64,000 nucleotides of DNA from Eledone cirrhosa (Eukaryota): positions 5,704,001-5,768,000 of the forward strand of contig OZ024763.1 in NCBI GenBank assembly GCA_964016885.1, written 5' to 3'. Positions within the stretch are counted from its first letter, which is position 1; each line of letters begins with the position of its first letter. The notes under the pieces were generated by a model, which saw only the letters and a list, made by a program, of their open reading frames with translations, was not told the DNA's origin and searched no databases. Made by a program: the position numbers and the translations under genes. This document shows positions 2,333 to 60,537 of this stretch, piece by piece.

Positions 2333-2398
2333 TATTTTATCTGATGAAAGCGCACCATAATTTGCCTTGGTGGCCCCTGAAATATGTATAATAAAATA
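2333..2398 (+). ncRNA. Minimal type-I hammerhead ribozyme motif
   Basis: TATTTTAT-CTGATGA-stem II (imperfect, CACC/GGTG)-GAAA-T-ATGT-A-TA-ATAAAATA. Stem I is 8 bp and the predicted cleavage triplet is AUA. Confidence 0.7.
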
Positions 2399-2930
2399 AA
2401 TATGGTTTTATAAATATAGTTTCCATTTTTTAATATATTGTATATATATATATATATATATATATATATATATATATATAGCGTTGGAAGGGTTAAGAAT
2501 ATTTCCCTACTATATCAAGCGTTAAACTAATATATATTTTCGTTGTACTGTGTTGTTTACTGTTTACTTTTCACATACATATAACTTCTGACAGAGACTA
2601 GGGTGACTCTGTCTGGCTGGCTGTTGTATATCTTGACTGTCTGACTCTCTGTCTGCAAATGTCTCACACCTCCTCCACCATCTCACCCCTCCAACCCCAC
2701 TTACACCAGCACCACCAATGTGTCTCTCTCCTTATCACATCTCCTCCACCCTCACACCTCTCCACCCTCACACGGCACCCACCCACCCACCAAACCTCCC
2801 CACCACACCCCTGGACTCCTTAATGTTTGGTATTTAAGAAACCAAGCCACACAAGTATATATATATATATATATATATATATACTATATATACCTATATA
2901 TATATTTACTATATACACCCATTATATATA

Positions 2931-3279
2931 CTAGCTGATGTACCCAGCTTCGCCAGGGTAAACAGATGATAAGAGAAGACGGGTAAAAGAGAAAATGGCT
3001 GTATTGGATGTTTGTCTGGTTACAGTATGAGGCGAGTCCGTGGTGTCTGTGTGATGCAAAAAACAGTAAAAGAAATCTTCCAGATATACCAGATTCTTCA
3101 TTGTACAGTTTGTACATAGTATATGAACAATTCTAGGTGCTCCCACCTAGAATAGTGACCTCTAGGAGATGGTTCATCTTCTGCCTAACTGTAAAACATG
3201 TATCATTGCATAGACGTGGTTGTTCCACGTTTCTCAAAAGGATGATGGAAGTTCCAATCTTTTATATTATATGTATAGA
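2931..3279 (-). mobile_element. Short non-autonomous Helitron
   Basis: On the minus strand it starts A|TCTATACATATAATATAAAAG and ends ...CCCTGGCGAAGCTGGGTACATCAGCTAG|T. This gives 5' TC, a subterminal hairpin, 3' CTAG and an A/T insertion site with no TSD. Confidence 0.7.
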
Positions 3280-3294
3280 TATAGATATAGATAA

Positions 3295-3780
3295 TTAATA
3301 TAAAAGATGATGCTCAGCCAGTTCGTCTTCAACCATCGCAGCACGCCATCGCTGCTTGGCTCCAGTGTTTCGTTGGCGTTGTTCAGCCAGCTCCTCTTCA
3401 TTCATGGCGGCACGTCTTCGCCTCTGAAGTTCGACGTTCCGATGGCGCTGTTCAGCCTGTTTTTCTTCATTCCTGGCTGCACGCCGTCGCCGCTGTAGTT
3501 CACTGTTTGATAAAGTCGAATTGCTTTTACTTTCTGTGGAACGCTGCACGCACGCACACACACACAAACATACGCGCACGTACATACACACGCACACATG
3601 GTAATAGTTACAGCGTTCACTTTGCATCTCTGTTTCTTACTCTCCCCTCTCACTCCCTCATTGGCATTATGCATATTAATTTAAGGTTGGCGTCGTGGAG
3701 GTGGGCGGAGTCGTTTGAAACCTATGAACCAATGAGAATCGAGAATTATGACACACGGAATACTGACATTCTTGAAATTA
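3295..3780 (-). mobile_element. Probable Helitron N-terminal ORF remnant
   Basis: Three imperfect ~23-aa charged repeats (ELQRRRRAAMNEEELAEQRQRN) of the kind found at the N-terminus of animal Helitron RepHel proteins. CpG-rich relative to flanks. Confidence 0.45.
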
Positions 3781-5163
3781 ATATATAATATAATGGGTGT
3801 ATATATATGTATATATATACATATATATATAAAGTGCATATGTTCATGTATGTATACACACACACGTGTGTGTCTGTCTGTATGTATATATATATATATG
3901 TGTGTGTGTGTGTATAAATATATAAATGCATATGTACATGTATACATGCACCATATATACGTATATGTATGTATATACATGTATTATATATATACATGTG
4001 TGTGTGTGTGTATGTATATATATATATATACACACATATATATATATATATATACACATATATATACACACACACACACACACACACACACACACATATA
4101 TATATATATATACACACACACACACGCACACATACACACACATATATATACACACACACACACACACATACACACACATATATATACACACACACACACA
4201 CATATATATATATATATATATATATACACACACACACACACACACACACACACACACATATACACACACACACACACACATATATACACACACATATATA
4301 TATATATATATAAAGAGAGAGAGAGAGGAGCAGAGAAAAACAATATATAAATTATTTCCCCCTCTCTTTCCCGCCCTCCCTTTCTCTCCCTCTCTCTTCC
4401 TCCTCTCTCTCTCTCTCTCTCTCTCTCATTCTCTCTCCCTTATCCTCTCTCTCTCTCGTTATTTAATAATGATTTCTTTATTATTTATTTATTTATTATT
4501 TATTATTTATTTATTTATTTAATAATGAATCGATCCAATTTAAGTTAAGAAATTGTGATTTAGTGACGTTAGAGTGATCTCCCTTGGACGTTTCTCAACT
4601 CACCAAGTGACGTTTTTCTTGTTTAATGTGTCTCTCTCTCTCTCTCACTGTGCGTGGATGTGTATATGTGTGTGTTTGCGCGTGTGTATATATATATATA
4701 TATATTTATTAATATAACAGATTAAAGTTTAAGCAAAGAATCGCTGCTTTCACCCTTAACGGGATTTTCTGAAACTAACAAAGTCAATCTGTAAACGCAG
4801 AACTGGATATTTCAAAAAACGTTGCAACCGGAGGAAGACAGGAAGACGATACTTTGGTTCGTGGAAACGTTCGTTGGCAAAGAACGGGAGAAAACGAATA
4901 ATACGTCATTAATAGGAGCGGTGAAAAACAATTACGCGCAAAGACAGAACCACGTTTATGGTATAAAAGAGGTCGTAGATTAATGTTCTCTAAGGGGTGC
5001 ATAGAGACGTTCTCTGGCAATGAACGAAAAAACGAAGATAATAAGTCTTATATGGAGCGTGGAGAACAATAGCACGCAAAGACAAAACCACGTAAATGGT
5101 ATAGCGTATATATATATATATATACGATATTAACAAATGGAAACTATATTTATAAACCATATT

Positions 5164-5228
5164 TATTTCATTATACATATTTCAAGGACACCAAGTTAAA
5201 TTATGGTGTGCTTTCATCAGATAAAATA
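5164..5228 (-). ncRNA. Minimal type-I hammerhead ribozyme motif (same family as 2333)
   Basis: Reverse complement TATTTTAT-CTGATGA-AAGCACACC...GGTGTCCTT-GAAA-TATGTA-TA-ATGAAATA. Confidence 0.75.
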
Positions 5229-5413
5229 TAATATAGAGCTGTTTTATAGATAAATATTGACATACCCTTAAAGAATGCAACCATTACTGTTGGAAGCTCC
5301 CGGATAGTTTTATATATATTTATATATATATATATATATATATATATATATATATATTTCGTTTCTGAATTTGTTTAGCAAGATTCTTTATCTGAAATCG
5401 TGTGTTGAAACCG

Positions 5414-58062: not shown

Positions 58063-58250
58063 TGTCTAAAGTCTGTCTTAAATCAGAAGGCTCATTTGGC
58101 CAGTGCTTATCCCGGTTTCATGGTGTGAAGTGACTAAGATTTCAAGACTCCCCCTGGACAGGACGCCAGTGCATTGCAGGGTTTAACCCCCAACTATTGC
58201 TGGTACTCATTTTCAGCTGAGTATACTGGAGCAATGTGAAATGAAGTGTT
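58063..58250 (-). mobile_element. SINE 3' fragment (family C)
   Basis: Inverted match to ~62686-62850. Shares TTGCTCCAGT..ACTCAGCTG with family B but has a different tail. Confidence 0.6.
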
Positions 58251-58928
58251 TGTATGTGCATATGCATACATTTATATGTATGAGTATATAAATATAAACA
58301 CACAAACACAGACACACAAAAATACACACTCAGAGGTATACATTCACACAAACACACACATAGATACATTTACACAAACATACACTCCTACACAGTGTAA
58401 CAAATGAAACGCGAGCCGCTGCTTTGCTATAGATTTTTCACCATCCCCTTACTTCCTTTTACACACACATACATTCACACAAACACACACACATAAAACA
58501 GTTGAAAAAAAAAACAAACACTTTCGTAAGTTGTCTCCCCTGAGTAAAAAATACATTTATTAAAAACCTACTAGAAATAACAGCCATATATCACACACAA
58601 GTGAATGTAAACACACACACACACACACACGTGTGTATATATATTTATATGTATATACATATGTATACATACATATATACATATATTTATATGTATATAT
58701 ACATATATATACACATATATTTATATGTATATATGCACTCACACAAACGAATATTTACATGTACATGCACATATAAATATTGAAAACGTGTGTTGAAACA
58801 TATATATTTATACTTTGGGAGGGTCATGTTACCAATAAAAACACACACACCTGTTGGTTTTCACTTCAATTTATTATAACTTTCCCGTTTGGTGGTTGGT
58901 TCGATAACCGGATGGTTGTTTATATATT

Positions 58929-58971
58929 GTCAAAGCTCTTTCGTCACACATTCTGTGACCTCCTCAGCGAC
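58929..58971 (-). ncRNA. Minimal hammerhead motif adjacent to Penelope-like RT remnant
   Basis: Reverse complement GTCG-CTGAGGA-G-GTCACA-GAATG-TGTGAC-GAAA-GAGC-TT-TGAC. Confidence 0.65.
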
Positions 58972-59049
58972 TGGATTTTTATTTTGTGTCTCTCCTTTGT
59001 TGTGTCCTACACCATCTTGTTTTTGTGTGACACAGTTACACCTCGGCCG

Positions 59050-59460
59050 AATCAGTTAGATATCGAGAACTACTACACCTCGATAACCCTACCACTCCTT
59101 TTGGACGCTTTAAATCATGCCAAAACAATTTCACCCATTACCGACCAAGAAATTTAAATAATATTCAGCGCTTGGAAGACCATCTTACTCTTCGATAATT
59201 CCACCTGGATAAAAAGAGCCCCCAGACTCTCCGTTCGACGTTAGTATGGGTTCTACTGACTTGGCCGAGGTAACGGACCTCATAGGTCTATTCATACTCC
59301 AAAAACTCATTGAAAAGTTTCCTGCGTTCGGATGTGGTTTTTACAGAGATGGTCTGTGCAATTTATGCTCGAGGGAACGATCCAGATGCTATTTGCCAAA
59401 GGCCAATTATTAAACAAAAGGGATGAACTCGTTACTTCATGTAAATACAGAATATACAAA
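59050..59460 (+). mobile_element. Degenerate Penelope-like RT/endonuclease remnant
   Basis: LDIENYYTSIT, FDVSMGSTDLAEVTDLIGLFIL, GFYRDG and LNKRDELVTSCKYR resemble PLE motifs FDIxxFYPSI, FDVTMGSYDGAE, GLYRDDG and LNKRSELxSKCRH. Stops and deletions are present. Confidence 0.75.
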
Positions 59461-60397
59461 ACATATCTTAGCTTGAAATCCCCTCACGATCCAGGTGGGT
59501 AGATCTTGGTTTTAATATCCTTCCCACTTACACACTAAGATAGAGGAAGCTCAGAGCACACTTGTCCCTTTCCTAAAGCATCCTTAGATAGAAATAGAAT
59601 ATTTTCATTATTGTAAACAAATACATATTGCCCTTTAAGACCAGCCGATTAGATAGCTATGGTACATGCACAGACCTATTACTGTACTACAGCAATGGCA
59701 CGCCTGGTATATAGAGTAAATGTGTACTATTATATGCACATATATTAGGCCAGTTCGTAAGCACCATCAAAAACCTATAGCGTTAGCCTTGTTAAAGTAA
59801 GCTATTAGTTATCATTCAATTTTATTATTTCCTTTTGCTAAGGTATCGCGATGGCTTTGATATACCTGTTATATATACACGTTGAGGCATTTCTTATATA
59901 AAACAGGAATCCATAATACTATATATTCTTAGATAACTTACGATAGCACAAGAACCGAAATAACTAGAAATATCTTTAAGATTAATGGTAGATTTATTGT
60001 TGTTTGAAATCAGTAAATTAGTGAACAAGGCACCTTTTCCGGACCATAAAGATTTCTCTACGAAGGGGGAGATAGTAATAAATTATAAATGCTTAGCTTT
60101 CTAACAAATCGTAAATAAAAAGCAAATTAACAAACACATAAATACACTACACCATTCCCTTTGACTTAAATACGCCGAAATTCCCGCCGTTCGAATACTG
60201 GCGCTTTAGTTCGGATCTAGCTGTCGAAATGGCTGGAGCTCAGCCGTCAGGGTCCTGAATATTTTCATATTACCCATTCTACTACCCCAAGTATCGAGTA
60301 CTCTGGTGGGTTATGGTATATATATATATATATATATATATATATATATGTATCAAAGTTAAAATTAGAGAAATTCAATTAAAATTCATGAAGAAGT

Positions 60398-60537
60398 GTT
60401 TATTACTTTACAATTGTTTCGAAGGAAGAGATAACAATTCAATCAATAAACGTATATACTATCTATAGTTCAATAAATAGATACGTGTGTTATTAAGAGC
60501 TATTACGAACAGATCCTTGTCTTCAGAACATATAAAC
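60398..60537 (-). ncRNA. Hammerhead motif with enlarged loop II, partly degenerate
   Basis: Reverse complement GTTTATATGTT-CTGAAGA-C-AAGGA...TCCTT-C-GAAA-C-AATT-G-TA-AAGTAATAAAC. A partial inverted copy of the 3' half lies near 60957-61036. Confidence 0.5.

What the first reader, a model, noticed from the sequence alone, without database searches (positions are those of the whole stretch)
2333..60537. Window is seeded with about 15 minimal hammerhead-ribozyme motifs from several unrelated repeat families
Seen: the order stem I - CTGA(T/A/G)GA - stem II - GAAA - tiny, often palindromic stem III - UH - stem I' occurs at 2333(+), 5164(-), 10951(+), 15046(+), 25480(-), 27375(-), 27585(+), 33692(-), 58929(-) and 60398(-). 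Mutated copies occur at ~28085(+), ~33525-33595 (an inverted pair), 46778/46917, 54069(-) and possibly ~53955(-). The stems differ in sequence but keep their pairing. Established: minimal type-I hammerheads mark the pseudo-LTRs of Penelope-like elements and non-LTR retrozymes, and cleave best as dimers. Inference: this genome carries a diverse population of short, non-coding, ribozyme-bearing retroelements mobilised by PLEs, at roughly one per 4-5 kb here. I do not know whether it has been catalogued for this taxon.
Basis: partly seen in the sequence, partly recalled or inferred. Interest (0 to 1): 0.85.

Follow-up and report, generated by a model that had tools for sequence, protein, structure and literature searches.

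The report
Octopus Penelope hammerhead stumps and retrozymes
The hammerhead ribozyme motifs are real and number roughly a quarter of a million (estimated) in this octopus-type genome; four of the families are broken-off tail ends of protein-coding Penelope-like jumping genes, a known kind, while one is a non-coding tandem repeat that lands in the Penelope pattern and is likely copied from an RNA circle by the Penelope enzyme.

Summary
Observation confirmed. Eleven type-I hammerheads with an intact core lie in the window, against about 0 in shuffles. Helix II covaries. The host is an octopod.

A blind 390-kb sample holds 27-34, one per 11-14 kb, or about 1.6-3.7x10^5 genome-wide. The window is about twice as dense.

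Families A, C, G and J (5 motifs) are 5'-truncated 3' ends of coding Penelope-like elements (PLEs); A and J fit the Hydra clade. This is published for animals (PMC4209133), and one O. bimaculoides family is listed (PMC8557442 supplement).

Family E (27131-27930) differs: a ~480-nt non-coding unit with 10,333 exact hammerhead copies, often in tandem. All 16 mixed-strand clusters are head-to-head, and arms end at two fixed sites in (TA)n. That is PLE anatomy on a retrozyme, a footprint of a partnership so far argued from co-occurrence and phylogeny. Family J has a 114-nt helix II.

Cleavage and expression are untested. The scan noted PLE stumps on other genomes. Verdict: new members of known kinds.

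The parts
2260..2441 (+). Family A stump: 3' pLTR end of a Hydra-type PLE; hammerhead 2332-2399 (C3 2341, predicted cut after 2390); ends in (TA)n
5107..5310 (-). Family A, second subfamily stump; hammerhead 5163-5229 (C3 5220)
10861..11051 (+). Family C stump with inverted tail piece at its 5' side; hammerhead 10951-11021; 9,906 exact 35-mers genome-wide
14855..15158 (+). Family B (sister of A): inverted tail about 14855-14979, hammerhead 15045-15116, ends in (TA)n; 456 exact 35-mers; no ORF seen
15198..15325 (-).
25380..25600 (-). Family F, minimal hammerhead 25480-25515 (2-nt helix III insert); 3,156 exact 34-mers, dispersed; parent not found
27131..27930 (.). Family E retrozyme-like insertion: head-to-head pair; minus arm (hammerhead 27375-27419) stops at the short end, plus arm (27585-27629) carries the ~58-nt tail; both end in (TA)n
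27980..28207 (+). Family F copy with G5A core change (C3 28090)
33501..33615 (.). Family M head-to-head pair (C3 33554- and 33562+), both damaged; relatives have a 14-nt helix III insert
33627..33902 (-). Family J stump; hammerhead 33691-33841 with 114-nt helix II; inverted tail piece at its 5' side; parent is a young Hydra-type PLE
46681..47048 (.). Family P, 370-nt palindrome (85% arms) with two decayed minimal hammerheads (C3 46809-, 46920+)
   Evidence: core changes read by eye
53952..53995 (-). Hammerhead H (C3 53990), weak stems, no relative in the ~1 Mb fetched
54036..54170 (-). Family N hammerhead 54069-54115 with family-wide U4C core
58780..59030 (-). Family G stump; hammerhead 58929-58971; in L107 it lies ~240 nt after a GIY-YIG endonuclease end of a non-Hydra PLE
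59040..59400 (+). Broken fragment of a Hydra-like PLE RT next to the G stump
   Evidence: tblastn E=1e-7; frames
60351..61036 (.). Family K: minus copy (C3 60526, 99-nt helix II, helix I unpaired) and diverged plus partner 60887-61036 lacking the CUGA box

Best explanation
The motifs are hammerhead ribozymes that sit in the end repeat (pLTR) of Penelope-like retrotransposons, and in four families the window copies are short 3' stumps of coding elements, likely left when reverse transcription started just downstream of the ribozyme at a nicked (TA)n site and stopped early. Shown: same hammerhead downstream of RT/GIY-YIG ORFs, two fixed 3' ends, (TA)n flanks, head-to-head pairs. Inferred from PMC11167929 (Anolis PLE in vitro): the PLE protein nicks both strands of AT-rich DNA and primes at two internal RNA sites (short end, tail end). 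Two cDNAs of different length then join head-to-head, giving the palindromes. Every copy spans the cleavage site, so the template was uncut or re-ligated RNA. Family E is a non-coding parasite of the same machinery. Shown: ~460-540-nt unit, no long ORF, tandem arrays with near-identical units, divergent inversion, two fixed ends. Inferred: array transcripts self-cleave as dimers and circularise, and the PLE RT runs around the circle to write 1-6 units in one insertion. Most solo stumps are probably inert passengers that cleave poorly as monomers.
For: A: L102 has the hammerhead ~240 nt before a 743-aa ORF. 8 of 20 endonuclease loci with only 1.5 kb of flank show the intact A hammerhead 1.3-1.4 kb downstream. 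J: 5 of 5 fetched long inverted pairs hold RT-EN ORFs of 446-736 aa. C: endonuclease end 1.19 kb upstream, with the inversion junction inside it (L188). G: L107. Protein identity: ESM Atlas neighbours carry RVT_1, GIY-YIG and HTH_animal; the AlphaFold model (pLDDT 71) matches RT folds including TERT. Ends: A copies end at +106/107 or +190-203 from C3; (TA)4 follows in 101 of 143 A ends and 26 of 53 J ends against 10% background. E: the first 100 exact matches form 52 clusters: 24 single, 19 with same-strand tandem units, 16 mixed-strand, all divergent. In 7 of 7 regions with both arms readable, one arm is short and one tailed (read by eye; 2 of 16 regions gave no call). Units within an array differ at 0-7 sites in 23 of 28 pairs, arrays at 5-68. 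Covariation: 12 A/B/C variants, 92.9% of cells paired, 23 double changes against 9.5 shuffled, 0/500.
Against: No cleavage, expression or circle data. No autonomous partner was found for E; its unit showed no homology to 12 PLE-bearing loci beyond E-like inserts. Eight window families have no ORF link. Pfam does not recognise the A or J proteins. RNAcofold gave the dimeric hammerhead for B but not for E or C (1 of 3). The covariation test used related sequences and a structure I drew; 5 damaged rows of 16 were dropped and one added. In array 5541 two unit variants partly alternate, which fits a dimer circle or a linear multimer as well as a monomer circle. In PMC11167929, hammerhead mutants did not affect insertion in vitro, so the ribozyme may be dispensable for the stumps.
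Confidence: 0.85

Rival explanations
1. One reading: most motifs belong to independent short non-coding retroelements (retrozyme- or SINE-like) with their own masters.
For: True for E and for a 311-nt family outside the window (13 units plus an inverted copy, L078). Incidental A copies are mostly under 150 nt upstream of C3. F has thousands of dispersed copies and no ORF link.
Against: A, C, G and J continue upstream into PLE ORFs. 5' ends vary from copy to copy. None of the first 100 listed B or F matches is a same-strand tandem neighbour.
Confidence: 0.15
2. E arrays are solo PLE-made insertions later expanded in place by unequal crossover or slippage, like satellites; no circular RNA is needed.
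For: The preprint 10.64898/2026.07.22.740005 names local amplification as a route. Near-identical units within an array are expected under this model too.
Against: Array edges fall on the same two unit positions and run directly into (TA)n, the inverted arm can itself be multimeric (L078; one '--++++' cluster), and 0 of 16 mixed clusters are convergent. In-place duplication of a solo copy would need a pre-existing tandem junction.
Confidence: 0.2
3. E is copied by PLE RT from linear multimeric read-through transcripts of existing arrays, with the hammerhead mostly silent.
For: PMC11167929 found unprocessed RNA the dominant template for an Anolis PLE. The preprint found cleavage in only 1 of 9 Xenopus retrozyme dimers. 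Unit variants partly alternate in one array.
Against: Linear copying with 5' truncation can only shorten arrays, yet 5-6-unit E arrays and a 13-unit 311-nt array with 11 of 12 full units identical exist. Circles are shown for coral, mussel and axolotl retrozymes (PMC7229834).
Confidence: 0.3
4. Chance matches in AT-rich, microsatellite-laden DNA.
For: H (53990) has weak stems and no relative found; shuffles give about 0.5 hits per 390 kb.
Against: 10 against 0 in 80 shuffles; exact family 34-37-mers occur 456 to 10,333 times against 0 for reversed controls.
Confidence: 0.01

Closest known systems
Minimal hammerheads of metazoan PLE pLTRs (Cervera & de la Pena 2014, PMC4209133; parts 1-2 of 4 read)
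   Same: Type-I fold, long helix II, tiny palindromic helix III, many families per genome, mostly single truncated copies, opposite-strand pairs 100-700 bp apart, U3-A8 core variant.
   Different: That paper counts about 2,000-9,000 per genome; my estimate here is 1.6-3.7x10^5 with a different descriptor. Its helix II is 7-8 bp; J and K have 99-114 nt.
Hydra clade of C-terminal EN+ PLEs, including Hydra-1_Obim (Craig et al. 2021, PMC8557442; section 11, passages and supplement Files S1/S2 read)
   Same: RW[K/R], DKT, CxCX5C linker, CxxC and CxH around the endonuclease end, (TA)n target, canonical hammerhead, inverted 5' copy and tail.
   Different: Described as a small set of families, mostly under 3 kb. 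Here 48,657 first-look candidates for one endonuclease end, 3' UTRs of 1.3-2.4 kb, and tails of about 90-135 nt against 30-40 bp. No tree was built.
Non-LTR retrozymes (Cervera & de la Pena 2020, PMC7229834, passages and Discussion read; Li, Clavereau & Pollet preprint 10.64898/2026.07.22.740005, parts 1 and 3 of 5 read)
   Same: Non-coding tandem units, each with one type-I hammerhead; PLEs proposed as the mobiliser.
   Different: Unit of 460-540 nt (170-400 nt in review PMC11722881). Arrays show head-to-head inversion, two fixed ends and (TA)n targets. 'Inverted', 'target site' and 'microsatellite' do not occur in PMC7229834's main text, and 'inverted' occurs only in a reference of the preprint.
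Poseidon_Ac of Anolis (Frangieh et al. 2024, PMC11167929; parts 1-2 of 4 read)
   Same: Two internal RT start sites define the tail; AT-rich target; both strands extended; uncut RNA as template.
   Different: Different clade; there the hammerhead overlaps the ORF start, while in family A it lies ~240 nt before the ORF.

Membership tests
Type-I hammerhead ribozyme | CUGANGA / GAAA / UH core with three helices in type-I order, above chance | tested here: met
   11 intact in the window
Type-I hammerhead ribozyme | Covariation of helices | tested here: met
   all 5 proximal helix II pairs covary; related sequences, so not a probability
Type-I hammerhead ribozyme | Match to an Rfam hammerhead model at gathering score | tested here: not met
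Type-I hammerhead ribozyme | Self-cleavage after NUH | not testable with these tools
   cofold gives the dimeric fold for 1 of 3 tested
EN+ Penelope-like element (A, C, G, J) | Single ORF with RT and C-terminal GIY-YIG upstream of the hammerhead | tested here: met
   full ORFs for A and J; endonuclease end only for C and G
EN+ Penelope-like element (A, C, G, J) | pLTR, inverted 5'-truncated copy, optional tail | tested here: met
Hydra clade (A, J) | RWK-type and DKT motifs, CxCX5C linker, CxxC/CxH, (TA)n target | tested here: met
   against PMC8557442 section 11; RWR in place of RWK; CxH seen in L102 and in the L156/L157 copy, not in L153
Hydra clade (A, J) | Phylogenetic placement with reference Hydra proteins | not tested
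   no tree built
EN+ PLE (B, D, F, H, K, M, N, P) | Link to a coding ORF | tested here: inconclusive
   none seen in the ~1 Mb fetched; B is homologous to A in hammerhead and tail
Non-LTR retrozyme (E) | Head-to-tail tandem units, each with a hammerhead | tested here: met
Non-LTR retrozyme (E) | No coding capacity | tested here: met
   longest Met-started frames 54 and 72 aa on the doubled unit
Non-LTR retrozyme (E) | Expressed as monomeric linear and circular RNA | not testable with these tools
   no RNA holder listed

The most novel reading that the evidence does not exclude
Family E is a non-LTR retrozyme whose every array is one PLE-catalysed, rolling-circle insertion: the head-to-head inversion, two fixed start sites and (TA)n target identify PLEs as the retrozyme mobiliser directly. 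This octopod also carries a few hundred thousand hammerheads, more than any count I saw in print, including an active lineage with a 100-nt helix II.
Probability: 0.5. Interest if true: 0.62.

Novelty: new member of a known kind. Interest (0 to 1): 0.42.

Why it matters
Which enzyme spreads animal retrozymes is still argued from co-occurrence and sequence kinship. Family E offers thousands of young insertions whose edges carry the PLE signature, and young PLE ORFs in the same genome, so the question becomes testable in vitro. The census suggests octopods are extremely rich in hammerheads; the 2026 O. vulgaris repeat annotation does not mention ribozymes (PMC13282606). Head-to-head pairs would form long double-stranded RNA if transcribed, which could matter in a lineage known for heavy A-to-I editing (my inference, untested). 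The bulk of the finding, stumps of PLEs with hammerheads, is established biology.

Tried and rejected
Rfam: no hammerhead at gathering score; the E-value run was swamped by microsatellite miRNA models.

The repeat finder was swamped by microsatellites.

The DNA search with family E returned nothing because very common words are skipped; a pattern search replaced it.

Pfam and PDB sequence search did not recognise the A and J proteins.

The idea that 33692 and 60398 were broken by an insertion was rejected: the long helix II is shared by the J copies displayed (output partly cut) and by a 77%-identical relative.

Apparent clustering of J 5' ends at helix I was not pursued, because the search ranking biases it and only 4 incidental J copies were available.

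Sequencing runs: no RNA holder listed. Contigs of four runs of unknown kind were laid; two hold a single 470- or 486-nt contig, about one unit long, which cannot tell a circle from a collapsed tandem.

Lunse et al. 2017 (PMC5785218, PLE hammerheads cleaving as dimers) is not held; I saw only its title in a reference list, and it may bear on cephalopod coverage. Supplements of the bioRxiv preprint and of PMC4209133 and PMC7229834 were not read and may list cephalopods.
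Full report
Context. The window is 37% GC and 49% tandem repeat. It is G000:C24:5704001-5768000 in a 3.0-Gb assembly. The TRAF4 last exon at 52810-53418 is 93% identical to Octopus vulgaris and 84% to a cuttlefish, so the host is an octopod.

Is it there? 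A type-I descriptor found 10 intact motifs against 0 in 80 local shuffles. A wider one found 10 against 4 in 50 shuffles; the union is 11. 54069 carries a family-wide U4C core (7 of 7 copies); PMC3088659 (passages) reports U4C as a weakened natural variant. Helix III inserts are palindromic in 20 of 33 real against 1 of 43 shuffled hits. In 12 A/B/C variants all five proximal helix II pairs covary; I dropped 5 damaged rows of 16 and added one.

How many? They hold 27 motifs (shuffles 0-2) or 34 (shuffle mean 0.5); five come from one array. The bootstrap gives 0.87 per 10 kb (0.54-1.23), about 2.6x10^5 genome-wide (1.6-3.7x10^5). U3-A8 variants add 16 against a shuffle mean of 2.1. Published counts are about 2,000-9,000 (PMC4209133), over 6,000 in a coral and up to 120,000 in axolotl (PMC7229834, passages), with other descriptors, so the comparison is rough. 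Exact family words: E 10,333, C 9,906, F 3,156, B 456, reversed controls 0.

What are they? Walking upstream from family A reached a GIY-YIG endonuclease end about 1.3 kb from the hammerhead. That 77-aa piece has 48,657 first-look candidates, of which 150 were scored. L102 has the layout hammerhead, 743-aa ORF, long 3' UTR, damaged second hammerhead. Family J copies are 98-100% identical for the 40 best of 977 candidates, and 5 of 5 long inverted pairs enclose RT-EN ORFs. C and G each follow an endonuclease end in one fetched copy, and a C-type variant does so in L112. Pfam misses the A and J proteins. Atlas neighbours and the fold search show an RT with GIY-YIG-bearing relatives. A and J carry the Hydra-clade motifs of PMC8557442, whose supplement lists Hydra-1_Obim with its hammerhead.

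Insertion anatomy. Copies have variable 5' ends, two fixed 3' ends and (TA)n flanks: (TA)4 at 101 of 143 A ends and 26 of 53 J ends, background 10% (J alignments often break inside the tail). Head-to-head pairs are common. This matches PMC3846280 (passages) and PMC8557442, and the two internal RT start sites shown in vitro in PMC11167929. Because priming begins roughly 55-200 nt downstream of the cleavage site, even very short insertions keep the whole ribozyme. That explains the density without selection on single copies (inference).

Family E. The 27131-27930 palindrome is a two-armed insertion of a ~480-nt unit with no long ORF. Its first 100 exact matches form 52 clusters: 24 single, 19 with tandem units spaced 458-538 nt (one 948), 16 mixed-strand, all divergent. 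Terminal arms stop at one of two positions about 58 nt apart and run into (TA)n. In 7 of 7 regions with both arms readable, including the window, one arm is short and one tailed; I corrected the script's labels by eye, and 2 of 16 regions gave no call. Units of one array are nearly identical, and arrays differ from each other. A second family outside the window (311 nt, 13 units plus an inverted copy) looks the same. PMC7229834 and the 2026 preprint propose PLEs as mobiliser from shared features, co-occurrence and phylogeny. Two searches and text look-ups found no description of this anatomy on retrozyme arrays; the library lacks many journals. No partner ORF was found for E, and circles are inferred, not shown.

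Long helix II. J has a 114-nt helix II (-37.7 kcal/mol) and a diverged relative 101 nt, both closing with the same proximal mismatches. K has 99 nt. The sample holds others of 52-79 nt. One search found no paper on such extensions; that is a thin test.

Against my reading. Eight families have no parent. Cofolding gave the dimeric hammerhead for only 1 of 3 motifs. The preprint saw cleavage in 1 of 9 retrozyme dimers. There is no RNA evidence either way.

Verdict. Real, abundant, and mostly explained by known PLE biology. The parts worth following are the E arrays, the scale and the long helix II. Earlier notes of this scan reached the stump reading on other genomes and none on this genome; I had formed the reading before looking. 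Novelty: new member of a known kind. Interest 0.42.

Noticed in passing
window 49814-53421 (+): TRAF4-like host gene exons (zf-TRAF twice, MATH). Hammerheads H and N lie 530-700 nt past the stop codon on the opposite strand.
   Followed up: partly
window 61161-62054 (+): Frameshifted PLE-like RT/GIY-YIG remnant of another family (3,084 first-look candidates); no hammerhead tied to it in 12 loci with 1.5-kb flanks.
   Followed up: partly
window 49454-49615 (+): GIY-YIG endonuclease fragment of a third PLE type (tblastn E=3e-9).
   Followed up: no
L078:440-4660 and L044: 311-nt non-coding retrozyme-like array, 13 units (11 of 12 full units identical) plus an inverted 5' copy, ending in (TA)n next to a family E array.
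   Followed up: partly
L042, L050, L053, L060, L061, L067, L070, L074: Abundant U3-A8 core hammerhead family with CCGG helix III insert, 9 copies in 390 kb; a second U3-A8 family lies 2.4 kb downstream of a Hydra-like ORF in L074.
   Followed up: partly
L050:1270-2091, L070:3452: Repeat family with a U4A-type core (CAGAAGA) and long helix III, 4 copies in 390 kb.
   Followed up: no
families A, B, J, helix II position 4: A C.C mismatch is kept at the fourth pair of helix II while flanking pairs covary; it may replace loop 2 in the tertiary contact (inference).
   Followed up: partly
G000:C12:21329000-21340500 (L151+L152): An 11-kb palindrome: two 5'-truncated family J PLEs joined head-to-head inside the ORF.
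   Followed up: partly
window 52288-52616 and 32827-33152; 5822, 10187, 25706, 29194, 37890: A tRNA-headed SINE-like repeat (Rfam tRNA hit) and a second ~200-nt repeat in five copies.
   Followed up: no
window 11916-12740 (-), 14197-14760 (+), 19296-19841 (-): Fragments that look like Helitron, Tc1/mariner and RTE-type LINE proteins; labels recalled, Pfam gave no hit.
   Followed up: no
window 39300-45800: About 6.5 kb of ACT/AAC-type 9-15-nt repeats with extreme GC skew.
   Followed up: no
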